Shown here: positions 5,895 through 64,000 of the stretch, piece by piece
How positions within the stretch are numbered: the stretch's first letter is position 1
Layout: the number at the start of each line of letters is the position of its first letter
Assembly: GCA_964016885.1 (NCBI GenBank)
Contig: OZ024742.1
Span: forward strand, 48,546,001 to 48,610,000
Length of the DNA stretch: 64,000 bases
Reading direction: 5' to 3'
DNA from: Eledone cirrhosa
Lineage: Eukaryota
Notes under the pieces: model-generated
Databases searched by the model: none
The model's input: the letters and a program-made list of their open reading frames with translations, nothing else
Told to the model about the DNA's origin: nothing
Translations under genes and position numbers: made by a program

Positions 5895-6193
5895 ATATAA
5901 AGAAAAAGAGATGAAATCGAAAATGCAACTGAAGTCTTATTTTTTTTTAAATATATATATTTATTTGGTTTCTTTACCGGTTTCGCAGTTCAGATGTGAG
6001 AAAAACCACAGACCCTCCATCTCAACTCACCTTTTGAAAAGCAGAAGAACTGCGAAACCGGTAAAGGAACCAAATAAATATATATATTTTTTTAAAAAAT
6101 AAGACTTGCATTTTCGATTTCATCTCTTTTTCTTTATACTTCCACTCGTGTAGGACACCTCGGTTATTTTTCATTTTGTAAAAAACACCTCAC

Positions 6194-6200
<7 letters not shown>
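5895..6200 (+). mobile_element. Fold-back PLE terminal fragment with HHR, inside (TA)n
   Basis: 5895-5990 is the inverted copy of 6047-6137; same family at 24448-24717 (-) and 26113-26250 (+), diverged copy at 27390-27700 (-). Confidence 0.8.
6030..6067 (+). ncRNA. Minimal type I hammerhead ribozyme, U3-A8 core variant
   Basis: cctt UUGAAAA gcag-aagaa-ctgc GAAAC cg GUA aagg; stems I and II pair, stem III is the palindrome accggt. Confidence 0.75.
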
Positions 6201-6224
<24 letters not shown>

Positions 6225-8304: not shown

Positions 8305-11300
8305 ATATTGTTATACTTGGGGAGGGTCATATTTGTGTAATATTGCCAGAATTAATAACAGAACACACTCACTGTTTGGTTGGTTTTAGCTTCTATGTCT
8401 TTTATATCGGTAATCTAATATACTCGGTCCTCAATGTTGCCATTGACTGACCGACGGTAGTAGTAATATAACGGTAGTAGTAATATAAACAATAACTCTG
8501 AGTATAGAAATAACAGCCATAACAATAACAATAGCAGGAAAGTGAGAAATAGTAATAATGGTAATAATACTAACGATAGACAGAACAACAACAACCACAA
8601 TAATAATAATAATAGAAACATTAACCACAGACACAGCAGCAGCGACCACAGTAGTAATAACGGTAACAATACGAACAACAACAAAAATAACCACAGTGGT
8701 AATAATGGAAATAATACATGTAGCAACATTAATGATAGACACAACAAAAACAAGAAACATAATAAAAGTAACAACCGCAATGGTAGAAATAACAGTAACA
8801 ACAACAATAACGGTGAAGTAAACAACAATACAGCTAGCAATCATAACAATAATAATAATGCTAATGATAGGAATAACAACAACCACCATCATAACAATAA
8901 TAGCAACACACAACTATGACGATAGATATAATGACAACCCCTTAGAGAAACTATTTTTCAACCCAGCTGACAAAACATATAAGATGGGTAATATCTATCC
9001 TACGAGGTTACCCTTTAATAAAAGCGTTTGCATACCACAACAAATAGATAACGAGACAGAGGCACAGTTCACCATAGCTAGAAATAAGATTAGACAAATA
9101 GTAGACAGGTATACTGAGAGACAGAGCAGACCAGATGCCCAACAACTTGGGAGGAAACCTGTAGACGGCTTGGTTAGCCTCAAGCAGCGCACAAGGGATG
9201 GTGAGGTAGTATGTCTACCCATGGATAAGTCTGGTAGGATGTCAATAGATAGCATGCCGAACTACATCAAGGCTATGCAACCTCACATCACCAACACGAG
9301 CGAAATTGCACAACAAACACACGATGGGAGAGAGAAAATCCTCAACGCTCACATGATGATGTGGACTGACATCCTAAAGCCAAGCAGACGCACTGCCAAC
9401 AACTTCCAGGCGTCTAACAATGGCATACCACCCTTGTATGTGCTCCGCAAAGACCACAAGACAGTCGACGACCCGACAACGGGACCACCAACAAGACCCG
9501 TGTGCGGAGCTAATATAGCTAGTAACTACAGGATCTCCTACTTCCTCTCAATGGTTATACGCCCCATAATCAAGATGTCCCCGGATGTATGTGACAGTAC
9601 AGAGGACCTCCTCAGCAGAATCAGTGAGTGCAACAAAACAGGAACCTATCCAACTGCATAATAGGCAGCATGGATGTGGTATCACTGTACCCATCCATTA
9701 ACATTGATTTTACTGTGAAAAAATGTGTGGAGATGATCATTGAGAGTGAGGTGGAGTTCGGCGACGTCGACACAGACGAACTGGGCCTCTCTCTTAGACT
9801 TACCTACGACACTGACTACCTAGACAGTCATGACCTTAGACGTTTCTGCCCTAGTAGACCCATAAGAGTTAGACCCCCCACCATAACCTCAATGGCAAAA
9901 AAGACTCCCATGGGAAGGTGGATTGGGTGGACCAAAGCTATACAGACCACCCAAAACAATGATCAGGTAAGAAAAATGATCGCACATGCAATAGGGGCTA
10001 GTATCAAAACTACCCTCAAGGGCCACATATTCAAGTTCACCCAAAATGAAGGAGCAGCCATTGGCGTCAGCATAGCTGGTGATGTTGCCAACCTTTTCAT
10101 GGTATGGTGGGAAAGGAGACTTAAAGATCTCCTTAATGAGAGCTCCATAGACCTCATCATGTACTCTCGTTATGTAGACGATATCAATATAGTTATAAGA
10201 ACATCCCCACTAGAGAGCACTAACAAGTTTGATTTAGAACGTAGCACAATGGAAAGCATCCAGCAGATAGCTAATTCCATACACCAGAGTATAACTGTAA
10301 CTATCGACTTCCCTTCCAAACACCCTAACAATAGACTAGCTGTATTAGACACTGAGCTCTGGATTAACACTATAGACGAGAGAGCCCAAATCTCCACTCA
10401 CACTATGCTAAACCCATGGCCTCCAAATACCTGATACTCAAAAACTCAGCAATGTCCAGTAGTGCTAAGTTTAATATTCTGATCGCAGATTTGGTACGAG
10501 TGATGAAGAATGTGTCCCGCATGTGCGACCCAACAGAAATGGAAAGACATCCAACACTTCATCAACCGCATGCAGTTCTCTGGCTACAACCAAAGAGACA
10601 GATTCAGAGTATACGAAGGAGCCATGGAGAAGTATAAGACCCTCATAGAACTGGACATGAAAGGAATTTGCCCATTATACAGGAGCAAATCATGGAATAG
10701 CTTAGATAGGGCTAGACATAAGATAGGGAAAGCCACCTCATGGTACGACAACCAGAGATACCAGAGTATCATGTTTGTGGACGCTACCCCTGGAGGGAAA
10801 TTAGCTAACCAGTGTAGAAAGACCCTGAGAAAGACCCACTTAAAAATTAAGGTCGTAGAAAAGCCAGGAACCACCATACAATCCCTGATCAGCAAAACCT
10901 ACCCTTTTAAGAAAACCCACTGTACCAATAGGAAGGTAAACCCCCGGATAAACTGTAAGACTAGAAACGTGTGTCTATAGCATAAGGTGTACAGAGGGTA
11001 CCTGCAGAAACATGACAACAACATACATCGGTGAGACAGCTCATAGCATAGGTGAAAGGATAGACCAACACTGGGGGGAACTAAAAGGACGAAAAAACGG
11101 GTCAGTACTATACGAACATGCCAGACAACATGACGGTAACATAGGCAAGATAGAAATTAGAATAATATCTAAAGATAGAAATGACCCAGCAGATAGGCAA
11201 ATCAGAGAGGCCAGTGAAATAGAACATAGAAGACCAAGACTAAAAAGAAAGAATGAATGGAATAACAACAACACCCAAACAAACAACACTGACCTAAGAG

Positions 11301-23446: not shown

Positions 23447-25069
23447 ACTACTGCCCTATAATATTAAATATATGAGTCATTAAGGAATGTAAAACATGTA
23501 TATTAGTCTAACACGTGTTTCACCAAATCAAAATTGAAGAAGGTTTTAGATGCAACAAGTTCCTTAAGCTGCGTTATAGTAGAAGAAACCACATTTATTT
23601 CCATTTTGTATCCTCAGAGGCATTAGAAATATACAAGAATTATTGGAGGAGTGTATCTGCAAAGCTAAAACACAATTTTAGTAGTCTAATATTTAGTGGG
23701 GTTTTAAAAGTCTTTGACGTTTGATGTGAAGAAAGCCCATAATAGAAAAAATATGTCATGAGTGGGTGGAATATTCAATTGACATTGAGTGTTGAGATCG
23801 TTTACACTAAATTAATTTATTGTAATATAGTCAAATGATAGAGATTCTCAGATCAAATCGGCATTTTTGAAACTTGAGGTGATTCTATATATCACGAATT
23901 GTTACATTGTTATCTTCTTTATAATTTATATGTGGAGGTTTAGTATATTTTTGTTACACTTTGCCGTGTACTATAACCAACGTTTGTAAACCAATACGCC
24001 CATCAAGATACCAGGAATATATATTATAAGAGAAGATCAAAACATGTGTATCTATCGCATAGTATGTTCTTCAAACACGAAAGCAGATGTAATTCTTTCA
24101 AGTAATATAATTTATACTTTTATACTAGGCTTTCCATTTGAGGTTTTATCAATAAAAAACTTTTCAGCCCAAACCTTCATCACATATTTTCTTTGATACT
24201 CAGAGAAAACCGCCTAAAGAAACATGAGACTAACCTGTTTTACTTGTTTTCTAGAGATATTACCCCCCTCTCTTACTTTTTGCTTCCAGGTATGAAAACG
24301 AATCTCTTTAAACTAGTATTCATAAGCAACGCAGTATTACTTATTTGGCTCAACAGCATGATATTAATTAAAAGTTGCTGGCGTTGTTTCGTACCATTGA
24401 TAGCCACTCAAATATTTGTCTTGATGGATATATATATATATATATATGAAGAAAAAAATGATGAAATCGAAAATGCAACTGGAGTCTTATTTTTAAAAAA
24501 ATATATATATTTATTTGGTTCCTTTACCGGTTTCGCAGTTCTTCTGCTTTTCAAAAGTAGAGTTGAGATGGAGCGTCTGTGGTTTTTCTCACATCTGGTT
24601 GGTCTTTGAATGTTACTTGTATTATAGGGAAAAAAGTGGCTCGAACGTCAGGTTTTTAGAGAAGTAATTTGATTGGTTGGTCAATAAGTATAATACATTT
24701 CGCGTGCCGTGTGCACAAATTACAGAAATTATATATATATATATAATTTCTGTAAGTATCTGGGTTACTGGATGTGGTAACAACATTATTCTCAATGCTT
24801 AGGCAGGGTGTATAAATGAAATATAACAAGACAAGGTGATTCCAGTTCCTCCGAGGAATAACAACACAACCAGGAGCTGGACATATCGATGTATTGACGG
24901 AATAAAATAGACTTCAACAACATGTGGATGTCTTTTCCACACAAATTCCGACTTCCTGAATAGTTCACAGCCAATGATGGCTGTCACCGAAATATATATA
25001 GAAGTATATCTATAATTTATAATAAACGAAGCCAAACTTTACATATTTGACTTAATTATTATATTTTAT

Positions 25070-25386
<317 letters not shown>

Positions 25387-26245
25387 CTGTAATTTTCTGG
25401 GTTACTGGATGTGGTAACAACATTAATCTCAATGCTTAGGCAGGGTGTATAAATGAAATATATCAAGACAAGATGTCCAAGATGGTTGGACCAAGGACCA
25501 TTCTTCTCTTATCGACCCAACATGCAGATGGAAGTTTGTCATTTATTAGGTAGCATGTTTTACGAAACCATTGATGCAAGAGTTTACTTTATAACATATT
25601 TTTGCCATTGAGCCAATCATCTGTGAAACATACGTAATTTGCCGTCAATCAATATCAAATTTCAGGATGAAGCCCATCTTTCTATCCTTAATACACACAC
25701 ACACATACCCCCCCCCCCCCACATATATATATATATATATATGTAGATAAATCTACCATATATATCTGTATATATATATATATGGGGGGGGGGATATGTG
25801 TGTGTTCGTGGGTGTATGTATTTGTGTGTATGTGTGTATGTGTGTGTGTGCAAATTACTGGTGGTGCGAAAACGAGCACTCAATGCGCAGGAAGAATGTA
25901 TATATTAAGAGAACGGATGAAGCTTCCTTTACATATGTCTAGGTGTTCTTTGTTTTGTATAGATCACTTACTTGTGTTTCGCAGTGTGTTTCAGGTTATG
26001 AATCCGACTCCATTATAGGTCTGCTCCTCAGACTGTTGATTCAACAATCCTCTGCGAAACGCACATAACAGATGTAAATGAAACTTCATTGTTTTTCTTT
26101 ATATATAGATATATGAAAAACCACAAACCCTCCATCTCAATTCTACTTTCGAAAAGCAGAAGAACTGCGAAACCGGTAAAGGAACCAAATAAATATATAT
26201 TTAAAAAAAGAAAAGACCCCAGTTGCATTTTCGATTTCATCTTTT

Positions 26246-26289
<44 letters not shown>

Positions 26290-27393: not shown

Positions 27394-27759
27394 AAAAATA
27401 GAGGTGTCACACGAGTAACAAGGAAAAGAAAATGCTGACAAATCTTTCCCAGTGAAAAATAGTTTAATTAGGAATAAGTATAAATTAGTAATAAGTATTA
27501 GATAGTATTCAGTTTTAGTTTTGAGTTTTTACCGGTTGCGCATTTCTAATGCTTTTCAAGAATAATTTTGAGATAGTACGCTCGTGATTTTTGCTCTAAT
27601 CTGATCAGTTTTGGAAATTTTTCCTGTCTTATGTGAAAAAAGTGGCCTCAGATGTATTAAGATTTGGGTGGTTGTTGAATGTCACGTGAATAAGCACTAT
27701 TTCTCTCTTACTCTTTCTTTTCTTTTGTTTTTCTTTCGTTCTTTCTTTTTCCTTTTCTT

Positions 27760-28410: not shown

Positions 28411-31400
28411 TATCACAGAAAAAAGTGAATCAGTGTTGCGACGAAAGGAATTTATTGGACATATTACAAATGTCTCGAGGCACGATCGATATGTTGATCA
28501 TACCTGACTCTGAAATCTCTCGGTCATCGGGTACGTCTCGATTCTACGAAGCAGATTTTCCTACGTTCCTTTAACATCGAATGTCTTCGTTTGTTGATTC
28601 CACGAGTGGTCAAAAATTGTAAACGTCACCGGTATTTCTAGCCAAACATGGTTGCCCACTTCTTGCTTCTTCTCGTTCTCAACCTGTCAATGAAAATTAC
28701 TTCATGTATCAGAATTTGTACTGAAGTGGTAGAGGGGCTGTAATCTTGAACGGCTGGCATCACTTTGACATCTTCATTGCCCCTAGGTGCCTTAGTCTAC
28801 ATCGGTCAGGTACACACCTGCAATTATGCTGTATGCGGCATTCATCATAAATAATGTTTTGCGGGAATTAAAAAAAAAACCAGATCATAGGTATATTTAG
28901 CGTTACATTTGTAGAACACAGCTGTTGTATACAGTCCGTCATACATATTTGAAAAAGAAAAAGAAAAAGAAAAAGAAAAAGAAAAAGAAAAAGAAAAAGA
29001 AAAAAACCTATATCAGAACATTTTTTTAAAAAACGTTTTTAAAAGAAAGATTTCAACAGCCATTCAAACGGAAGGGGTATATCAAATGTGTTTTCAGAAA
29101 ATAGACACCATTCTACACTCAGACACTAGGCTCAGGGGAGCGTGCATAGCCAAGACGCCGCATATATATATATAGGCAGATGAGAAAAAAAAGAAAAATC
29201 CATGGAAAGTCATCCGTACCTCCACGCATACATGCTCAGAAAAATACATCGACCTATGCATGCGCACACCCGTGCTCATGGATGTCTGTATGGGCACATA
29301 TACATACATACATGCACCCATGTGCTCCCACAGCGGATGCAAATACTCGATGAGTAACCCTCCATCCGTCTACGAACGTGACCTTGACCCAACCTGATCA
29401 CGTGGCGGTGAGTCCGAGGGTGCCTGCACAATATGCCAAAATGTTACGGCAGCACAATATCCCTGGACTAATCGCATATAACGTGGGTGGTACATATATT
29501 AAAAAACCCTGTACGTACATAACGTAAAATAATGAAATAATATACAATAATAATATAAATTAAGATAAAATACAATAAAATAAAATGCAGGAAAAAGAGA
29601 ATGCATACATGACAAGGATGCAGAGGGGGACCGGTCATTATCGAGATGTTCGTAAAGTTTCATACAATAGTTGGGGGCTGTGGTGCAAATGTTTATATGA
29701 TATACATGGGGGATGGTGAGCTAAGGCACTGGGTGGGAGCCTGCGCGTGATGCAGGTCTCGTTGCTTGTGGATGGATACGTGCACAAACAAGTTATATAT
29801 ATTGAGTTTATGTGCAACAATCATTTCATAAAAGTATGTGTGAGATGTGCATGGGTTTGATGTATACATGGATTATAAAGAGTACGTGCTTCATAACGAT
29901 ATATATGGAATGAACGTGGAGTGTATGTATGATGAAATGTGACATTGGCATGCGTTGTGTGCGTATGTATATCAACGGCATGGAACGACAAAATTAAAAC
30001 GTGAAATAAAACCAAAATTAAAATTAAAATTAACACCAACATTACAATTAGCTGCGACATTAACCTTAAGAGCAGCACCATGTCTATCATGCAAGTCGCG
30101 GATTAAACACCGCGAATCGCATATCGGAAATCGATAATTTAAAAATGTTAAAGTTTGAATATTTAGAAATTTGAAAATTTAAAACGACACATATGTTTGT
30201 ATATCCAATCGTACTTGTAATGAGTCGGCGTCCGCAAATTGGTGTGGTGGTTCTATAAAGGTATTCTACGAGGTGTGCAACTTTGGAACTGTCATTGCTG
30301 TCAACATGTGCTGTCATGCATTCAAAGTTGTGTAGTGTTCTATTGTGGTCGGCTGTACGCGCTCCACCTGGTGTTGCGGTGCCGGTGGTGCGCTATGTAG
30401 ATCCACCCGGTATCACTATGGCGGAGATTGTGCATTTACGTTTATGTCTGCATGCCATGATTATTTCAGACTTGAGGTTGACTGCGTCACTCTTAAGTTT
30501 TATTATCTCCATAGACTCGGACAGGCATAACTTGCACTTCCTCTCTCCGGCCGAGTACGCATTCGCATGCTGAACAATACCCCATATGGGGTCATATTCT
30601 ATGCCACTGTCTTTGAGTCTCCATACTAAGTCCGCCAATCTGGTGGAGTACCTTTTGTTCCTGTCCTTGAACGAGCTCTTGTGGTTGTACATCCTCGACT
30701 TAAAAGTCGTGGATGTAGCTCCGATGAATGTGTGCCTATCGTTGTGCGTGGTAACCATACATCTATAGACAATGCCCTTAGTCAGGCACATTCCCTGCAG
30801 GGGGCACTCTTCACGGCCACGGCAGTTACATGTCCGTCCATCATTTTTCCAACACCCGTTACGTGGTCCTGGCATCTTATTTGTGTTCTCATCGCTCCTC
30901 GAGTGGTGCTCCGCGGAGTGGTCGACTCAATGTTCACCACCAGCTGGTCTCTGCTGGCAGGTCTGGGGCCCTCCGCATCCGCGGCACTGCACCCAAGCAC
31001 GTCCCCAGAAACTTCTGCCGCAACCGCGTGCCCTCCCCGCAACCCCCGGCGAGCCTGGTGCCTGATCGTTGCGCCCATGAGGTGTCCTCAATTTCAACGC
31101 GTTGGTCTTGGCCATGTAGTCTGCCATGTTGGGTGCGTGGAAAATGAGAACTTCACGGTGTGCCGATTGAAAATTTTGAGGTACCTGTGTGAAGCCGGGA
31201 AACACTCGTCGAATGCCCTGAGGAAGAGACCTGGCATGTTAGTGCGTACATGCTTCGAGTATGGCGCATTAAACATTTTACGTTTCTATATCTATTTCTA
31301 TTTCCAGTCTGCTACTAGTGGTGTTTGCATTATCAAGCTGCTCTCTCGGGTTAAGCCCTACTCCTAATTGACCCCCCCCCCCCCTCATTATATCCCTATG

Positions 31401-33818
31401 CATAGAACTGTTACTTAAGTCTGTGGAATGGCCTTCCCTGGCTAAGTTGTTCTGGGCTGTTGCTAGCCCTATTTTCCGTCTCTGTCCTTACCCGAGTCTC
31501 CTGTTGTATCATTGCTGGTATTCTTAGTCTTGGTATTACCCCTAGTGCACCGGGCTGTGTTATCTACTTCACCCTCTATGGATTGCGCGTCCTGGTCCGT
31601 GGAGTTACTATTGTTCCCTTCGTATGCGTTGTGGTCCCTATGGTTCCCGAGCTCCCTCAACTGTCTATGCGCTGTGAGGCCATCACTGTCGTGTTTAATA
31701 CTCCTATCTATACTGTTGGGTGTTTGCTTACGGGTAGGCTGTCTGCCTAAGTTATTACTAGCGGTATCCGGGTGTTTGTGTTCCCCGCAATGCGGCCTGC
31801 CCTTGTCCGGGATATACACTATGGATTATGTGTACCCTGCCCTGCCCAGTGCCTCATTGTAGTAGTCGGCTTGCTGATAGAACACATCCACATGTGTATA
31901 CTCGGGTGGAAACCCCCTTGCCTATGGCGTCAATAACCGACCTGGGGTGGTTTGAGTGCCTGTTTACATACTGCAGGTTCTCGTTGGGCTTGTGATATGG
32001 TCGGTATAAGGCTGTATCTAGTTCTAGTCTAGGAAAGTTACTGTCTTTTACTGTCTTAGTACTATTTTCTACAAGCCCGGATAAGCCGTGCTGCTTAAAG
32101 AAATGTGAGATGCGCTTCCGTATGCGCTCCAGCTGGATAGAGTTTAATGAGTGGAAGGTAAATAGGGCATCGTTCCTATATATCAATCCGCCTATCCCTG
32201 GAATCTCCTCTGCTAACCTAGTGCGTAGATAACTTCCCATCAAGTCCGTCACATGTGTGGATCGCTCGAGCACATAGTGATGTCGAAACTGTCGGTCTGT
32301 CTCTCCTTTCCCACAGTCTACCGTCAAACCTAATGAGTGCCTTTCTAGCAGCTATAATGATGTCCACTTTCCTCTACTTAAGTTGGACCTTGCCCTAGGG
32401 TCTTGTTTACAATTACTGGTGAGATAGACTCGTAGTAATCTGCTATATCCAGCTGCACAAAGTTCACTTGCTGTTTGGTGGGCAGCGCTGTAAACCAGTC
32501 TATAACCTCCTTAGTGGAAGTCCATATGCTAAGTCAATTTCTATTCATAAGTGTGGGCAGTATCCTATCCATAATATTCTTACTGGCCGTACCTAGGTCC
32601 GACTTGGAGGGTGCTATTTTCTAACCGGGAGGTTGGTCTTAAGTTCTAATTTATGGTCCTTGATGGAAATCCGCGGTTTTATAGGTACGTATTGTTCTGT
32701 TCTGTCTGCTACTTCCAGTCCTGTCATTAAGTTTTTGGTCGTGTAGTTGATTCTGTCAAGGTTGTCCTGGCCCGTAATCCTATCAATCTTCATAATCTAT
32801 TTCTCCATGCATTTTCTGTAGGTTCCGTGGTTCATCCTGTAAATGTTACCCCTCTTATCCGAAGGTACAAGTAAGTCCGGGCAACTCTCCATGCTTTTAA
32901 TCTTGGAGCTGATTTCTTTCAGGTACTGGTTTCCGCGTGCTGCATTCCTGTTGAATGTTATGTTCCTTACGATGTTTACTATGCCGTTTTCGAAAGTTTC
33001 TAGTGCCCCGTTGTGCGGGTGGTGTCGTCTGGACATTAAAATCCTCCTAAGTCGGACGCGGGTGATGTCCTGAGTCTGTTGTGTATTCCCGTGGTCGTAG
33101 TGGAAGGCGCGCCATCTCATGCTCCTGACAAATGAGTTGGTGTGGTGGCTGAGTAGGCGAAAGTGGGTGTTTTCCGAAGGTATCGGGATGTCTTTCGACG
33201 CGGAAGAGTACTGGAATCGCTCCATGGCAATTCGCTTCAAGCGCTCGACTTGTGGAGGAGCAAAATAATTGGTATTGGATGCTTAAAGCGTCAAGTTGCG
33301 GTAGGCCATATGAGCACTAGATGCCCTCGTGGAGCAAAGTATGGTATCACAGAAAAAAGAGAATGAGTGCTGCGACGAAAGGAATTTATTGGACATATTA
33401 AAAATGTTTCTCGGGCGACCAGTTCGAAGCACGATCGATATGTTGAACATACCTGACTCTGAAATCTCTCGGTCATCGGGTACGTCTCGATTCTACGAAG
33501 CAGATTTTCCTACGGTCCTTTAACATCGAATTTCTTCGTTTGTTGATTTAGATCCTGTTGTTGTCATTCCATGAGTGATCAAGAACTGTAAACGTCACCG
33601 GTATTTCTAGCCACTTATGGTTGCCCACTTCTTGCTTCTTCTCGTTCTCAATCTACCAATGAAAATTTCTTCATGTATCAGAATTAGTACTGAAGTGGTA
33701 GAGGGGCTGTAATCTTGAACGGCTGGCATCACTTCGAAGTGTTCATTGCCCCTAGGCGCCTTAGTCGGTCAGGTACAAACCCGCAATTATGCTGTATGCG
33801 GCATTCATCATAAATAAT
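28411..33818 (-). mobile_element. Near full-length Naiad-like Penelope element with direct pseudo-LTRs
   Basis: Direct repeats 28411-28855 and 33345-33818 carrying HHR relics flank a decayed RT+EN ORF. Confidence 0.85.
30393..33240 (-). pseudogene. Disrupted PLE RT plus GIY-YIG endonuclease
   Basis: SKDIPIP..MRWRAFHY, SDKRGN, QLDIADYYESI, GLIYRND, YHKPN..LQYV..SNHP, FNAPY, CxCx5Cx5C, IVY..FIG.T.TTFKSR..H, CKLC, CRH. Confidence 0.9.
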
Positions 33819-34971: not shown

Positions 34972-35020
<49 letters not shown>

Positions 35021-35238
35021 AATTAAGTTAAAAATGTACATCCACATATGTATACTGAAATACTAGTATGCATATGAATACACACATGTGTACATATGTA
35101 GATGTACCGAGTTTTTCACTGGACACTTTACTGTGAGTGTTCAGCTATTATGTATGTAAACACAGACAAACCGGTTTTTAGAGTCATTCTGGTTTTCGAG
35201 GAAACACCTTTCCTCTATTCTCCAGAAAGCCAGACAGG

Positions 35239-35283
35239 AATATTGGACTAGTTTCGATGTTGTTACATCTCATCAGCAATATT
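35239..35283 (-). ncRNA. Intact type I hammerhead ribozyme
   Basis: aatattg CUGAUGA gatgt-aaca-acatc GAAAC ta GUC caatatt. Confidence 0.92.
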
Positions 35284-35703
35284 TACCTATCCTCCGGCCT
35301 TTCTAGAAAATCGTAAAAGCACATATCGTTATATGCTTTTTCAATGAAAATTAGTAGTGGGCAGACTAATTTGCATAGAGCGTGAGTACGTACCGGTTCA
35401 GCGGAGACGATAAAAACAAATAACGAAACGAAATTAAATTTCGTTTCGTTTGTAACTCACTTTTGTATGACTGACGCTTAAACAATTAAGTTAAAAATGT
35501 ACATCCACATATGTATACTGAAATACTAGTATGCATATGAATACACACACGTGTACATATGTAGATGTACCGAGTTTTTCACTGGACACTTTACTGTGAG
35601 TGTTCAGTTATTCTGTATGTAAACACACAGACAAACCGGTTTTTAGAGTCATACTGGTTTTCGAGGAAACACCTTTCCTCTATTCTCCAGAAAGCCAGAC
35701 AGG

Positions 35704-35748
35704 AATATTGGACTAGTTTCGATGTTGTTACATCTCATCAGCAATATT
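35704..35748 (-). ncRNA. Intact type I hammerhead ribozyme, second unit
   Basis: Identical to 35239-35283. Confidence 0.92.
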
Positions 35749-36488
35749 TACCTATCCTCCGGCCTTTCTAGAGAATCGTAAAAGCACATATCGTTATATG
35801 CTTTTTCTATGAAAATTAGTAGTGGGCAGACTAATTTGCATAGAGCGTGAGTACGTACCGGTTCAGCGGAGACGATAAAAACAAATAACGAAACGAAATT
35901 AAATTTCGTTTCGTTTGTAACTTACTTTTGTATGACTGACGCTTAAACAATTAAGTTAAAAATGTACATCCACATATGTATACTGAAATACTAGTATGCA
36001 TATGAATACACACACGTGTACATATGTAGATGTACCGAGTTTTTCACTGGACAAATTTAATTTCGTTTCGTTATTTGTTTTTATCGTCTCCGCTGAACCG
36101 GTACGTACTCACGCTCTATGCAAATTAGTATATATATATATATGTATATATCTATGTACATATATATATGTATATACATATATATGTATATATATATGTA
36201 CATATATATGTATATATGTATATATATATGTATATATGTATATATATATGTACATATATATATATATATGTACATATATATGTATATATATATGTATATA
36301 TATATATGTACATATATATATGTATATACATATATATATGTACATATATATATGTATATACATATATATATGTATATACATATATATATATACATATATA
36401 TATGTATATACATATATATATGTACATATATATATATGTATATACATATATATATGTACATATATATATATGTATATACATATATATA

Positions 36489-56296: not shown

Positions 56297-58266
56297 GAAA
56301 AAATGATATTATTGAAAAAATGATTGGGACAATTCTTTTAAACAAATGTTTTATAATGTATATGAAATATATCAAGTATTACCGGTTTCGATGTATCATT
56401 AAAATTCATGAGGAACCTCCTTGCATTACTACAAAAATACCGCAGTAGCCTAACCACAAAAGATCGTGAATACAAGTATAATACAAGTGTTTTCTACAGC
56501 TTACCGAAGATACATAAATGTAAACTCATAAGCAATGCCTGTGGCACTTCGACTAACAAATACATACAATTAACACCACCAGAAGACTTAAAACTGAGAC
56601 CAATTATAGCAGGCCCTGCATGTGAAACCCACAGACCTAGAAACTTCCTGGACATCCTAATAAAGCCCTTACTAACACATATACAGAGCGACATAGGGAT
56701 GACTTTGATATGCTGAACCATCTACCCAAAACAGTAACTGAAAACACAATTATTGTCTCCCTTGGCGTAGTAAACCTCTACATAACATACCCCATAACCA
56801 TGGAATAACAGCAATCCAGTATTGACTAGACACTCACCAATTTGAAATACCAACACGCATCAACAAAATCTTCCTTATTGATGGACTCCGATTTATCTTA
56901 CAGAATAATTTCTTTACTTCCATTGACTCAACATCCCGACAAATCTCAGGGACTGCAATGGGCACAAAGGTAGCCCCCACATACACCAACTTAGTCATGG
57001 GATTCCACGAATAACAAATCTACAACCAATTCCTTCTATTATTCGGAGACTCTCTCCTTACACATCTCGAAAATAATTGGAAGAAATACCTAAAAGATTG
57101 CTTCATACTATGGCAAGAAGATATGATTACACTCACTCTTTTCAAAAATATGATTAACTACATTAACAATAATATACAATTCACAATGGAATCCAAGTCC
57201 AAGGAATTAGCCTTCTTGTATCATCTCATTCTAAAAACAGATGGGAAAATAGAAACAGACATCTTTTATAAACCCACGGACTCCAAACCACGGACTCAAA
57301 TATCCCAAAAACATACAAAACTTAACATTCCTTTAAATTTAGCCAAATGTATGTGCACCATAGTATCAGACCCAGCTAAACGGGAACGAAGACTAAATGA
57401 ACTCAAAAACACACATACCTTAAAAGCCTTCCCACTTGACATAATTAATAACGGAATTGACAAAGCAAAACACGCAAATTTGCATCAACCCAACAGCCCA
57501 AAGCGCAGAACCACAAACAATATCTTACCATATGTATCCACGTTTAACCCCAGATACACCGAAATGTTCCACCTCCTACACAAAACCCCCCATTCTATTT
57601 AAAGATGGGAAAATGAAAACATTCTAGAAACACACAATATCATCAAAAGCAAAAGACAACCAAAATCACTAAAACACTTTCTCACTGGAACAAATATACA
57701 AAAACGTATCTCCAGCCTTATGGTAACAAAATGAGGAAGAACAAACTGTGAAAGATTCCTATACTTAACTGAAGGACATAAATACACGTTTAAAGATAGC
57801 CAAACTTTCACAGTGAAAAACAACTTCATCTATGTGATAACATGCGGCAGCTCTCGACATAACTATATAGGACAAACAGGGTGACATTACGCAAAAGAAT
57901 GACCATCCATTGCCAAAACATCCGGGACGTAAACACAAGGAAAATCCCCTTAAGTAGCCACATTGCAGATTGTGCAAGAATGATTCTACCCAACTTTAAA
58001 ATCTTCCTTCTTTACAAGTAATCCGATTCTTTCACTCAACAACAAAGAATAAACAAGAAAAAACTATTTATTAACAAATTTAAACCAAAATTAAATATAT
58101 AATCAGCCCCATTAGATCCCCCCCCCCCTCCCACACACACAACAAAATAATTTTTAGTTTTTGACATTTTTCTGAATTTTGAGGAAAAAAATTTAAAATT
58201 TCCCACCACAAAGGGACCTGTGAGAGACAAGCTGGAGCGCCCCCCCCTCCCACATATGTGCATTGT

Positions 58267-58305
<39 letters not shown>

Positions 58306-59063
58306 CACAAAACAAGAGAGAAAAAATTACTCATTCCAGAAGTTACTCTAATCTGGCTTATTTATTATTTTTTTTTATTATTTTTAGATTTCGAGAAACC
58401 TTTGGATTTTGAAAATAACTTTTGAAGATTTTTTTTAATTTCCCATCACAAAAGGACTTGTGTGACAGACAAACTGAAAACACACACACATACACACACA
58501 CGCGCCAACACCCGAGGCCTCAATTTTGAAGAAAACTTTTTTTATTTCCCACTATAGAGGGATCTGTGACAGACAGGCTGAAACACACACACACACATAC
58601 ACATGTGTGTATTGTTATATATACACCCTCACATTATATATATATATATACACACACTCCCTAAAACCATATTCCAATAATAGAATTTCTCTTACACTCC
58701 TGTTGCTGCCATAGAACATACATCTAGCTTACAATTCCCCATCCCCTTTTGAACTATTGACCAGTCAAATAACACAGTCAGATATATACACACATATTTA
58801 CAGGATGTTTCCTTTGCCCCCCGAAAACAACTTTGTTCTGTGAAGAAACATAGCTGCTGCTATCTCCACTACCACCTCTCTATTAACAACAACTCATTCT
58901 CCAGCCAAATTTAGAGCAAGAAAGATGGGGAAACTTACTCCAACATTTGATTTTAATTTTAAATCTTTAATTTTTAGTTTTTAACTCCTATTAATTCTTT
59001 TTTATTTTTATTTCAATACTCAACATTTGATAAGATGAATTTTAATTGTACATCGAAACCGAT

Positions 59064-59252
59064 AATAATTGTTTCTACTTTTGGCACAAGGCCAGCAATT
59101 ACGCAGTGCATTATTGGTACTTTATTTCATCGACCCCGTGAGGATGAAGGCAAAGTTAACCTCGGCGGGATTTGAACTCAGAATGGCAAGGGACGTAACT
59201 CTATGCGCCAAAGCATGCGTCCGACCCTCTACCGATACAGGCCATCCACCGC
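59064..59252 (-). mobile_element. tRNA-derived SINE with 18-bp flanking direct repeat
   Basis: atcgaaaccgataataat at 59052-59069 and 59273-59290. Confidence 0.88.
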
Positions 59253-59574
59253 CCTTATATATATACATTATTATCGAAACCGATAATAATGTATATACAT
59301 TATATACGTTATATACGTTTCACTAAAAGAATTGTCGCTCACATTCTTTAAGTAACGTCATTTTTTCAATAATGTCATCTTTTCTATAATGTCACTTTGA
59401 CAAATCAAAGAAAGGATAAAAAAAGAAAGTCAGACCCTTAAATACATTTTCCATGCTATTTCCAACTTCACCTTTTCTCTAAATCCACTGTCTTGTATAG
59501 AACCTTACTTACCTTTTTTAATATATATAAGTTAAAACAATGAAATTGAAAATCAAGTCATTAGAAATATACTT

Positions 59575-59713
59575 CACTGCTTTACGATCGTTTCTAGGTG
59601 ATAATACATCGTAAATATACTTTGTTTTCGATCTATGTAAGGTTAGTTACAAAATATCAAATAGGGAGAATATGTACTGACATGCATATCACCAGCTGTT
59701 GTCAAAAGCAATG
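59575..59713 (-). ncRNA. HHR with U3-A8 core and long stem II (second copy 62751-62882 +)
   Basis: cattgctt UUGACAA [long hairpin] GAAAC gatc GUA aagcagtg; 8-bp stem I. Confidence 0.72.
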
Positions 59714-60484
59714 AGAATTTTATTCAAAATTTGTAGTAAATTAGTAGTAAATTAAGTTCTATGACCTCATTTGGAGGTAGCTGAAGAACAAACCAAACAG
59801 ATTGTTTTTTTCCATATGATATTAAGATGAAAAATAATTCACTTTAGTTGAGGTCATGACCCTTTGAAAGGAATGGTTGAATGGTGTTAACAGTAGAATT
59901 GCTATAAAGAATGTATTAGGAAAAGGGGGATTGTCAAATTGATAGTTGAATGTATATGGTATAGTAAAGTTTAAAAGGAATGTAAAAATTAAATGTTGTG
60001 TTGTGTTGTATGGAGTTTTTAGGAGAATATAAATTAAGTTCATGACTAGGAAAGATAGTATATTAAAAGATGAAAATTATAAGATAATGAAATACAGTAA
60101 TACAATAATATAATACGGTGTGGTAAATTGTACATAGTATAATACAGCGTATGATACGTCTTAAAATACTTGTCCATATATAAATAATCAAACTCAGATA
60201 ACTGTATGTTGACATATTCAAAACGATATGAATTTCATAGATCACAAAATGCATATACCCACATTATAGATAGGGGAATAGTTATATTGATACACAATGA
60301 AAAAACATACATACGTATAAATAGATGTAAACATATACATACATCTATATATGTGCACACAATCATATACATATATATATTTATATATATATATTCACAT
60401 ATACACACCTATACACACATATATATATGTATATGTACACACCCACATAAACACTCATACACATATAGACGCATATACACACAT

Positions 60485-60595
<111 letters not shown>

Positions 60596-60678
60596 GTAGG
60601 AGGTGAGTTTTATTGTAGTACAATAAAGCAATGCAGATATCGGATAAAAAGCACTCTACAATTTGTAGGACTGGAGTA

Positions 60679-61012
60679 TATATAATATATAAGAACAAAA
60701 GATGGTTAAAAGAGTTCCATGTATTTTATTATACGCATTTCAAAAACAAATATCATCATGCAATAATATTTGTGTTTTCATCAGATAAAACAGGAAGACA
60801 TGATATGAAGGTTAAAAAACACTTGTGGATAGTGCAGTTATGTTGATTTAAAACTGCACTACCCACAAGTGTTTTTTAACCTTCATATCATGTCTTCCTG
60901 TTTTATCTGATGAAAACACAAATATTATTGCATGATGATATTTGTTTTTGAAATGCGCATAATAAAATACATGGAACTCTTTTAACCGTCTTTTGTTCTT
61001 ATATATTATATA
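60679..61012. mobile_element. Head-to-head palindrome of about 330 bp with an HHR on each strand
   Basis: + HHR 60901-60967: ttttat CUGAUGA [stem II] GAA atgcgcat A ataaaa; - copy 60724-60790; decayed family copy at 28161-28300. Confidence 0.85.
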
Positions 61013-64000
61013 TATATATATATTCACATATCATACATAGATACATATATACTCATGCAATTACGGGTGGTTGTGTAACTTGTTGCATAAATCTAAGGAA
61101 GCTAAAACATTAAAAGGTAAGATAGTTAGTGATACGGTTGTATTGTGATTTTGTGTTATGTTGTTTTTGTGTTGGTGATTTGGGTGGTTGTGTTTTCCAG
61201 GTTGAAGGATTGTATTATTTGTTCTTTTAAAAGGTGCAGTCCTATTTAAATTATGTTGTGGTGGTGTGGTCATATTATTTTTAAATTTATAAATGTTGTA
61301 GTTGCTTATTTTTTGCTGGAGTTTGTTTGATGTAGAGTATGAGAATTTAACAGTATACCTGTTAAATATTTGGTGGTATCTGTGGTTTGGTGGAAAATGT
61401 TAATGTAGAATTTCGAAGAATTTTTTGGGGATTTTCCAATAGTATGCAAGTTGAAGGGTGCGTTGTACCATGTTATGTTTCTTTTGCGGTTTTTAGTTAA
61501 GTTTGTATTACCATTTATATTAATGTGCTGTGTTATAGAAGAATTCCTATGGTTAGTATCTGTATTTGTGGAATTTGGTAAATTGCAGTGGTTGTATTTG
61601 GTGTTATTATTGGGTAGATTATGAGAGGTTGAATGCTTGATATTCATATGTGAGTTGATAACATTAGTCATAGAGCGTGTAGTAATAGTTGTGGTTTTTC
61701 GGTTGTTTGGTGTGATGGGAATGACCCCATTAGGTATTTGTTTCGATGGTATTTTTTGGTGTTTGTAGTTTTTGCTAGGTTTTATATTTTGGTCCATAGT
61801 AGTGTTGGGGATATATGAAATGTTTTCTTTATATCCACTTCTAGTTAAGGCCTCGTTGTAGCAGGGTGCATTATTATAAAATATATCTCCATTGGAAGAT
61901 AATTTAAAAAGTCTAAGAGATATGTTATATACTAATTTTTTGAGTATAGAGCCAGGGTGGTTAGAGCGTGAATGTACATAGTGTAGATTCTGGTTGGGTT
62001 TGAGGTAAGGTTGATAAATATTCGTATAGAGGTCTAAGGTAACATCAATGCAATTAGGTACTTTTGAAGTGTTTTCAAAGGTGATGTTATGGTTGTAATA
62101 GTCCTTGAGGAATTTTCTAATTTGTTTTTTTGTTTTTCTCTATATTAGAATTGCTAAGATTGTTAGATAACAATAGACAATCATCCCGATAAAGACCACC
62201 TTTGAGGTGGGGAAATGTATTTTAAGACGTATCATACGCTGTATTATACTATGTACAATTTACCACACCGTACGGGGCCGATAAAATAAAGTTCCAATAA
62301 TGTACTGGGTAATTGCTGGCCTTGTGCTTAAAGTAGAAACAATTATATTATATTATTGTAATACTCTATTTCATTATCTTATTATAATTTTCATCTTGTA
62401 ATATACTTTCTTTCCTAGTCATGACCTTAATTTATATTCACCTAAATTCTCCATACAACACAACTCAACATTTGATTTTTACATTCCTTTTAAACTTCAC
62501 TCTACCATATACATTCAAATATCAATTTGACAATCCCCTTTTTCCTAATACATTCTTTATAGCAATTCTATTGTTAACACCATTTAACCATTCCTTTCAA
62601 AGGGTCATGACCTCAACTAAAGTGAATTATTTTTCATCTTAATATCATATAGAAAAAAACAATCTCTTTGGTTTTTTCTTCAGCTACCTTCAAATAATGT
62701 CATAGAACTCAATTTACTACTAATTTACTACTAATTTTGAAAAAAATTCTCATTGCTTTTGACAACAGCTGGTGATATGCATGTAAGTACATATTCTCCC
62801 TATGTAACTAACCTTACATAGATCGAAAACGAAGTATAGTTACGATGTATTATCATCACCTACAAACGATCGTAAAGCAGTGAAGTATATTTCTAGTGAC
62901 TTGATTTTTTATTTCATTGTTTTAACTTATATCATGACTCTGTTTTCCTTTTAATGTTTTGTTTTCCGGGATTTATTTTAACCTACAACATTTTCAACAT
63001 ATTGATTACATTGAGTTCTTCATGCAGACTGGACTCCACAACTTACCGTGGATATCTCTGTGTATTTTGCTCCTTCAATATATTTTTTCATAATTTTTTC
63101 CACTTCTGTGATTATAATATTTAGTTGAGCTCTTTTTTTTTTTATCTAATTCCTGCATCACAATGGAAAAACAATATTTGGGTACCTCGTTGAAGAATAT
63201 TCCAATTCCACCTAAAGATGAATATCTACTCTTGCTCATACAAAAGACTAACCAATTTATTAGGAGAATGTGATGAAGGGCCTATCATTTTGACAACAAA
63301 ACCAATACAGATGAAATGAAGTACCGCTATGGATTCAAAACATACGCAAATCCCCCTCATAATATTCAACTTGAAAATTTTGAGAGCGCCCTACTGAACA
63401 TGATTAAAAACATAAAGTTCAGAAAACAGAAATCTGAATTCCAAAAGGGATTAGACTCTACTCTTCGACCACTGAACAATTCAAACAAGGTCGATGTTCA
63501 TTCTGACGAAACTGGTACTTTGTACCATATGGATATCGATAAATATAACCAGGTCATATATAAAGAACCTAGAAAAAACTATAAGAAAGCAAGCACCACC
63601 GCACTGACATCCTTGAACAACATATCATGTGATATAGTAAAATAAACTCCATATTGAAGATAGAACTGAGCCTTTCACAACCTAAGAGCCCGCACTTCAA
63701 CCTGAAGGACTATAAATCTTACTTTAATTCGAACCCATCTATTAGACTGATATGCCCATCAAAATCTGATATTGATAATATCAACAAGAGAATTATTGAT
63801 CGTATCATTCCACACATTAGTAAATGTGTAACACTTCCATTATGGGATAAAACTTCCCAAGTTACTGAATGGTTCACTAGCATAGAGAATAAAAACTCAG
63901 CTTCATTCATTGAATTCGACATTGATTCTTACTATTCTTCGATTTCTTCAATTCTTTTAAACAAAGCACTGATCTTCGCCAGAAATAGATCGGATTTATG

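What the first reader, a model, noticed from the sequence alone, without database searches (positions are those of the whole stretch)
6030..6067. Family-wide compensatory U3-A8 hammerhead core (UUGAAAA)
The canonical C3-G8 tertiary pair is replaced by U3-A8 in all four copies (6030 +, 24521 -, 26146 + with U4C, and diverged 27526 - whose stem II differs: gcatt/aatgc versus gcag/ctgc). It is therefore a family trait, not decay. U3-A8 is a known tolerated but uncommon variant, and CUGANGA descriptors would miss these motifs.
Basis: partly seen in the sequence, partly recalled or inferred. Interest (0 to 1): 0.78.

Follow-up and report, generated by a model that had tools for sequence, protein, structure and literature searches.

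The report
Penelope hammerhead with known U-A core
The motif is one of more than 11,000 genomic copies of a small hammerhead RNA motif carried by a Penelope-like jumping gene; its U-A core pair is shared by four sister families and is already in print, and the motif likely cuts itself only weakly while this particular copy is likely inert.

Summary
Confirmed but largely known. Window 6030-6067 is a minimal type I hammerhead motif with a palindromic stem III, at the 3' end of the pseudo-LTR of a Penelope-like retroelement (RT, Zn-finger linker, GIY-YIG). U3-A8 is the family state: 11,625 exact copies in the genome, none with CUGANGA. Four sister families (RT 53-57% identical) share U3-A8 while stems I and II covary, so it is a clade trait kept by selection. 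U3-A8 hammerheads in Penelope-like elements were published in 2014 (about 1,300 in Schistosoma), and this scan has noted them in other genomes. Corrections: the 27526 copy belongs to a separate family (about 4,300 copies) that also carries C at invariant position 13; three families have A17, which can pair with U3 and is predicted to damp cleavage. Copies run 79 or about 152 bases past the predicted cut, so uncut RNA was the usual template; a weak excess of 5' ends at the cut hints at occasional cleavage. The 6030 copy lies behind an inverted fragment that is predicted to sequester it. No cleavage was measured.

The parts
6030..6067 (+). Minimal type I hammerhead motif, family A: stem I 4 bp, core U3-U4-G5-A6-A7-A8-A9, stem II 4 bp, G12-A13-A14, palindromic stem III, A17; predicted cut between 6063 and 6064
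5991..6211 (+). 5'-truncated 3' end of the pseudo-LTR of family A, from 73 nt before the predicted cut to 152 nt after it (with tail), ending in a (TA)n tract
5896..5991 (-). Inverted, shorter, tail-less copy of the same pseudo-LTR end (-17 to +79); complementary to 6047-6143, predicted to sequester the 3' half of the hammerhead in a read-through RNA
24445..24704 (-). Family A pseudo-LTR fragment (-180 to +79); hammerhead 24558-24521, U3-A8, 3-bp stem I
26107..26256 (+). Family A pseudo-LTR fragment (-72 to +79); core 26149-26155 with U4C
27422..27663 (-). Family B pseudo-LTR fragment; core 27559-27553, U3-A8 plus C13; this copy has lost the stem I closing pair
56402..58100 (+). Broken ORF of sister family D (RT, linker, GIY-YIG; 46-67% amino-acid identity to family A over the matched pieces)
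59024..59067 (+). Family D hammerhead motif, core UUGAUAA at 59027-59033, stem III palindrome broken in this copy; tied to the ORF at 56402-58100 by adjacency in this one copy

Best explanation
The motif is the hammerhead of a Penelope-like retroelement clade in which U3-A8 replaced C3-G8 before four sister families split, and it likely works as a slow, dimer- or protein-assisted self-cutter that is not required for each insertion, while the 6030 copy itself is likely an inert truncated fragment. Shown: hammerhead anatomy; position in the pseudo-LTR on both sides of an RT + GIY-YIG ORF; U3-A8 fixed in families A, B, D, E; paired changes in stems I and II between families; copies end 79 or about 152 nt beyond the predicted cut. 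Inferred: two motifs of a tandem transcript pair through the ACCGGU palindromes and cut after position 17; reverse transcription starts downstream of the motif, mostly on uncut RNA; A17 competes for U3 and damps the rate; family B (C13) is probably weaker still or dead.
For: 11,625 exact copies, 0 with CUGANGA; 99 of 100 listed anchored copies U3, 100 of 100 A8 (by eye). RT and GIY-YIG ORFs upstream of the motif in L031, L033, L035; CX4CX2C linker as described for Neptune/Nematis clades; direct motif-ORF-motif layout in family E, L121 and L123. Families A, B, E are 53-57% identical in RT; 3-8 pair is U-A in 77 of 77 A, 30 of 30 B, 22 of 22 D, 23 of 23 E distinct fetched copies (several fetched by patterns that demand U3-A8), with stem II pairs 2-4 and stem I pairs 2-3 changed on both sides between families and position 17 A, C or U. 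3,569 further U3-A8 matches against 21 for the reversed control; 18 matches for the C3-G8 version. Same variant and low dimer activity in PMC4209133; protein-assisted, insertion-dispensable hammerhead and tail signature in PMC11167929. Stems of the 6030 motif have probability near zero in the read-through context.
Against: No cleavage or expression data. Stem I is only 2-4 bp next to the core and the hammerhead fold is not the minimum-energy monomer fold for the major A variant, B, D or E. Family B spread to about 4,300 copies with C13, so amplification does not need a canonical core. U3-A17 is predicted at probability 0.61 in the 6030 monomer and worth 1.4 kcal/mol in the dimer. No direct tandem motif-ORF-motif copy of family A itself was found among the loci fetched.
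Confidence: 0.65

Rival explanations
1. The motif is a catalytically dead or nearly dead hammerhead-shaped element kept for another job (RNA dimerisation through the palindrome, protein binding, positioning the start of reverse transcription); U3 mostly pairs with A17 and simply extends stem I.
For: U3 with A17 in A (76 of 77), B (30 of 30), D (18 of 22), analogous to the inhibitory C3-G17 pair (8- to 300-fold loss, PMC3884650); C13 is the founder state of family B (99 of 100 listed; only 74 non-C copies, spread over A, G and T); copies extend past the cut; core mutants do not affect insertion in vitro in the anole element.
Against: U4, G5, A6, A8, A9, G12, A14, A15.1, U16.1 stay fixed across four families while loops and stems turn over, family E has the canonical C17, and 5' ends are somewhat enriched at the predicted cut.
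Confidence: 0.22
2. U3-A8 is fully compensatory and the ribozyme cleaves efficiently, as an obligatory step that cuts tandem transcripts to unit length.
For: U3-A8 was reported active in vitro (stated in PMC3088659; the kinetic paper itself was not available); excess of 5' ends at the cut, 32 of 67.
Against: Nearly all copies contain the motif plus 79-152 nt beyond it; only 156 copies fit the cut-site-start pattern against about 12,000 intact ones; family B lacks A13; PLE hammerheads are slow in vitro.
Confidence: 0.1
3. The motif is a chance look-alike inside the terminal inverted repeat of a foldback/MITE-type DNA element.
For: The locus looks like a 96-bp inverted repeat; the core is A/U-rich.
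Against: The inverted arms are variably truncated copies of a retroelement 3' end; 0 hits in 300 shuffles; covariation across families; link to RT + GIY-YIG ORFs.
Confidence: 0.03

Closest known systems
U3-A8 minimal hammerheads of Cercyon Penelope-like elements in Schistosoma mansoni (Cervera and De la Pena 2014, PMC4209133)
   Same: Type I, in pseudo-LTRs of Penelope-like elements, U3-A8 core, G10.1-C11.1, short stem I, mostly single or inverted copies; one listed example even reads UUGAAAA.
   Different: Here there is no extra base between A9 and G10.1, stem III is a 6-nt palindrome, stem II is 4-5 bp, position 17 is mostly A (G and U in the two listed Schistosoma examples), and the variant covers a whole clade of at least four families and over 19,000 pattern matches.
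Palindromic-stem-III hammerheads of Drosophila virilis, D. willistoni, rotifer, shrimp and mosquito Penelope-like elements (PMC4209133)
   Same: Small palindromic stem III implying dimers; stem I as short as 2 bp.
   Different: Those listed have C3-G8 and GAAA; these have U3-A8, and family B has GCAA.
Hammerhead of the anole Poseidon element PAc (Frangieh et al. 2024, PMC11167929)
   Same: Motif near the pseudo-LTR/ORF junction, two discrete 3' ends (tail) downstream of the cut site, AT-rich targets.
   Different: PAc has C3-G8 and its ORF starts inside the motif; in family E the ATG lies about 180 nt after the cut; these elements have a Zn-finger linker (Neptune/Nematis type).
Natural U3-A8 core variants (Perreault et al. 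2011, PMC3088659)
   Same: Same covarying 3-8 pair.
   Different: Described there as rare examples; A13 is listed as consensus core and no A13C variant is named in the section read.

Membership tests
Type I hammerhead ribozyme | Core N3-U4-G5-A6-N7-N8-A9 with 3-8 Watson-Crick pair, G12-A13-A14, A15.1-U16.1, H17 | tested here: met
   Met for 6030 and families A, D, E; 3-8 pair is U-A.
Type I hammerhead ribozyme | Invariant A13 (family B, 27526) | tested here: not met
   C13 in 99 of 100 listed copies; 74 non-C copies genome-wide.
Type I hammerhead ribozyme | Stems I, II, III with covariation | tested here: met
   Both-side changes between families at stem II pairs 2, 3, 4 and stem I pairs 2, 3; stem I only 2-4 bp; four related families, so few independent events.
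Type I hammerhead ribozyme | Rfam hammerhead model above gathering score | tested here: not met
   No hammerhead row at 6030 among the 150 of 282 rows shown; only sub-threshold HH9 hits at 35224 and 35689.
Type I hammerhead ribozyme | Site-specific self-cleavage after H17 | not testable with these tools
   Indirect genomic signal only.
Minimal hammerheads of Penelope-like elements | Located in pseudo-LTRs flanking an RT + GIY-YIG ORF | tested here: met
   3' of the ORF in A (L031, L033, L035) and B (L049); on both sides in E (L121, L123).
Minimal hammerheads of Penelope-like elements | Palindromic, unstable stem III implying dimers | tested here: met
   ACCGGU in 143 of 152 distinct fetched copies of the four families; duplex -8.3 kcal/mol.
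Minimal hammerheads of Penelope-like elements | Unpaired base between A9 and G10.1 | tested here: not met
   Absent in all four families; also absent in a few published examples such as the shrimp one.
Penelope-like elements, Neptune/Nematis type | CX2-5CxxC linker between RT and C-terminal GIY-YIG; 5'-truncated, inverted copies; tail; microsatellite targets | tested here: met
Penelope-like elements, Neptune/Nematis type | Placement in an RT tree with reference clades | not tested
   No reference sequences were on hand; Neptune versus Nematis is left open.

The most novel reading that the evidence does not exclude
A whole Penelope clade has tuned its hammerhead down in steps: U3-A8 combined with A17 creates a built-in off state (U3-A17), and one successful family went on to lose A13, giving a natural series from active (family E, C17) through self-damped (A, D) to dead (B); the small pile-up of insertion 5' ends at the cut would be a genomic record of cleavage in vivo. 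That would make the open question of what hammerheads do for Penelope-like elements directly testable in one genome.
Probability: 0.2. Interest if true: 0.58.

Novelty: new member of a known kind. Interest (0 to 1): 0.3.

Why it matters
The headline variant is in print, so the finding mainly adds a large new example and confirms that CUGANGA-only scans miss whole element clades (over 19,000 pattern matches here). The side results matter more: a family that amplified with C at position 13, a U3/A17 clash in three families and a weak pile-up of 5' ends at the cut bear on whether Penelope-like elements need their hammerhead to cut at all, which the papers read leave open.

Tried and rejected
Rfam scan: no hammerhead call at 6030 in the rows shown; microRNA hits are repeat artefacts. 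MITE/foldback reading rejected. A C3-G8 subfamily was sought three ways and not found: 0, 0 and 18 scattered matches (the reversed control gave 180 and is not comparable because it lacks the CpG). An A13 subfamily of B was sought and not found: 24 A, 11 G, 39 T among 74, counted by eye. An alternative register for family B using the GAAA in loop II leaves no stem II and no U16.1 (read from the sequence). Sequencing runs: no RNA holder listed; two runs of unknown kind, contigs only, were laid and show no change of 10% or more at U3 or A8 but may come from the same source and say nothing on expression. MAFFT alignment A1 misregistered stem II between families, so pairs were counted by script instead (one search lumped B with A and was redone). 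A direct tandem of family A around an ORF was sought in three more regions and not found. The breakpoint list for family B was flooded by (TA)n hits and cut; only rows with 5' ends up to 0 were used. Not in print by my searches: hammerhead + C3U + G8A 0 papers, hammerhead + A13C + ribozyme 0, hammerhead + U3-A17 0, hammerhead + cephalopod + Penelope-like 1 paper on another clade; the library lacks Lunse et al. 2017 on variant PLE hammerheads, Przybilski and Hammann 2007, Nelson and Uhlenbeck 2008 and Martick and Scott 2006, and supplementary file 1 of PMC4209133 could not be searched, so A13 or U3/A17 variants may be described there.

Full report
Observation. Window 6030-6067 has the full anatomy of a minimal type I hammerhead: 4-bp stem I, core UUGAAAA (6034-6040), 4-bp stem II opened by G10.1-C11.1, GAA, the palindrome ACCGGU as stem III and A17, with the predicted cut between 6063 and 6064. 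U3 and A8 are present at all four places named. A strict descriptor finds 4 motifs in the window and none in any of 300 block-wise dinucleotide shuffles. Rfam lists no hammerhead there among the 150 of 282 rows shown.

What carries it. The window lies in a 3.0-Gb, microsatellite-rich animal genome (cephalopod-like is my guess from composition, not a tool result). Longer copies show the motif about 1 kb downstream of an ORF with RT (Pfam RVT_1, E 7.7e-07, just under the curated cut-off for family A and above it for B) and GIY-YIG (E 1.1e-06), joined by a CX4CX2C linker. Passages of Craig et al. 2021 (PMC8557442) give that linker for Neptune and Nematis Penelope-like elements and describe 5'-truncated, inverted copies with an optional tail. 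The 6030 locus is such a pair: a forward fragment 5991-6211 (-73 to +152 relative to the cut) joined head to head with a tail-less inverted fragment 5991-5896 (-17 to +79), in a (TA)n tract. In a read-through RNA the inverted arm pairs with 6047-6143, and stems I and II have probability near zero. With no ORF and no same-strand partner nearby, this copy is likely inert (inference).

Family or decay. The exact 29-mer with UUGAAAA occurs 11,625 times, the CUGANGA version 0 times. Of 12,184 copies anchored on stems II-III, the 100 listed have U3 in 99 and A8 in 100, none C3 or G8 (counted by eye). So U3-A8 is the founder state. Shared descent alone shows no selection, so I looked for sister families. 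B (the 27526 type, 4,308 matches) has its own ORF (L049), and its pseudo-LTR is 73% identical to A up to the cut and unalignable after it. D (ORF remnants at 56402-58100, motif at 59027; 155 exact matches, 96 of 100 listed A8, 4 G8, 0 C3) is tied to its ORF by adjacency in one copy. E flanks its ORF in direct orientation in L121 and L123. RT identities among A, B, E are 53-57%. A general U3-A8 pattern excluding A and B gives 3,569 matches against 21 for the reversed control, 7 of the 100 listed being mutated A copies (by eye); the C3-G8 counterpart gives 18 scattered matches. Across 152 distinct fetched copies (77 A, 30 B, 22 D, 23 E; many fetched by patterns that demand U3-A8, and B deliberately enriched for non-C13 copies) the 3-8 pair is U-A in all, while stem II pairs 2-4 and stem I pairs 2-3 change on both sides between families, N7 is A or U and position 17 is A, C or U in all but one. 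That pattern is what selection on a hammerhead fold predicts, though it rests on four related families. Other repeat families in the same window keep CUGAUGA.

Signs of weak catalysis. Stem I is 2-4 bp next to the core, and for the major A variant, B, D and E the hammerhead fold is not the predicted monomer minimum. A, B and most D copies have A17, which can pair with U3: probability 0.61 in the 6030 monomer, 1.4 kcal/mol in a dimer model. By analogy, the C3-G17 pair is the proposed cause of an 8- to 300-fold loss (PMC3884650, Discussion read); the transfer to U3-A17 is my inference. Family B has C13 in 99 of 100 listed copies, and the 74 exceptions are spread over A, G and T like neutral decay; A13 is consensus core in Perreault et al. 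2011 (PMC3088659, passages and section 8). Copies end at +79 or about +152 to +173 in A and +112 or +154 in E, beyond the cut, so the template was normally uncut at that motif. Frangieh et al. 2024 (PMC11167929, parts 1-2 of 4) found the same in an anole element: protein-assisted cleavage, not needed for insertion in vitro, no RNA ends at the cut.

A weak trace of cleavage. 156 places show the family A sequence starting near the cut without the upstream core. Of the 100 listed I dropped 33 (no tail match, same-strand family sequence upstream, or duplicate flank); of the 67 left, 32 begin exactly at the cut or one base after, 26 and 9 fall in the classes that include starts one or two bases before it (p 0.0006-0.01 against three null models of my own). 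Among 29 inverted partners, 8 end at -3 to +2, 13 at +8 to +75, 7 at -63 to -73 and 1 at -28. This fits a small pool of cut templates, about 1% of copies, but RT stalling at a folded motif or junction bias toward A/T-rich sequence could give the same, and no control offset could be run. A stronger 5' hot spot near -73 (A) and -71 to -79 (B) may be the transcription start (partly biased by my query).

Mechanism. Most likely (0.65): the clade's hammerhead pairs with a second copy through ACCGGU in tandem transcripts, probably with the element's protein, and cuts slowly after position 17; insertion proceeds mostly from uncut RNA. Anatomy, location, fixation and covariation are shown; dimerisation, cleavage and damping are inferred. 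Rivals: dead motif kept for a structural role (0.22), efficient obligatory cleavage (0.10), chance motif in a DNA element (0.03).

Comparison and novelty. Cervera and De la Pena 2014 (PMC4209133, parts 1-2 of 4 and parts 1-2 of 3 of supplementary file 2) report U3-A8 in Penelope-like hammerheads of Schistosoma mansoni, about 1,300 hits with a dedicated descriptor, and low dimer activity for PLE motifs; Perreault et al. report the natural covariation and state that it was shown active in vitro. Seven earlier notes of this scan describe U3-A8 Penelope hammerheads in other genomes. I also saw passages or single sections of PMC6765202, PMC3907566, PMC6257768 and part 1 of 5 of bioRxiv 10.64898/2026.07.22.740005; none changed the reading. 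Differences from the published cases: no base between A9 and G10.1, 6-nt palindrome, A17, clade-wide fixation, and C13 in family B, which is not among the cores in the extracted text of the 56-motif alignment and was not found by my searches; Lunse et al. 2017 was not available and may cover it. Verdict: real, a new member of a known kind; interest 0.30, carried mainly by the side findings.

Noticed in passing
window 27422-27663 (-); L049, L048: Sister family B amplified to about 4,300 copies with C at hammerhead position 13; it has its own RT + GIY-YIG ORF. A possible natural case of a successful Penelope family with a dead hammerhead.
   Followed up: yes
window 6034 and 6063; families A, B, D: U3 together with A17 allows a U3-A17 pair that extends stem I, analogous to the inhibitory C3-G17 pair; family E has C17.
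   Followed up: partly
window 5991, 26107; many loci: 5' truncation hot spot about 73 nt before the predicted cut in A and 71-79 nt in B; candidate transcription start inside the pseudo-LTR.
   Followed up: partly
L127-L226: Small excess of family A copies whose 5' end lies at the predicted cut; also several local tandem duplications that begin at the cut.
   Followed up: partly
window 35016-36053 (-): Two 98%-identical tandem units of about 465 bp, each with a canonical CUGAUGA type I hammerhead (35741, 35276; 7-bp stem I, ACUAGU palindrome; sub-threshold Rfam HH9 hits); retrozyme-like or pseudo-LTR tandem.
   Followed up: no
window 59525-63645: Penelope-like ORF remnants on the minus strand, a 92% inverted repeat (59525-60115 / 62346-62932), and a head-to-head pair of canonical CUGAUGA hammerheads with a long stem II and an 8-nt palindrome (60784 -, 60907 +).
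   Followed up: no
window 8822-10980 (+) and 11582: Another Penelope-like RT remnant (weak RVT_1 hit) followed by a CUGACGA core with a 6-bp stem II and a non-palindromic stem III.
   Followed up: no
window 30393-33282 (-): Broken Penelope-like ORF with a weak GIY-YIG hit; its hammerhead was not identified.
   Followed up: no
just upstream of stem I in families A, B, D, E: A short TCAA word recurs 3-8 nt before the core in all four families; role unknown (tertiary contact or intron signal are untested guesses).
   Followed up: no
window 6030; L027:1540: Family A has two variants at stem I pair 4: paired (36 of 77 fetched copies, as at 6030) and mismatched (37 of 77); about 30% paired in run X1.
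   Followed up: partly
window 53484-55297: LINE-like RT fragments by eye (no Pfam hit for 54686-55294), repeated in L021 and L029.
   Followed up: no
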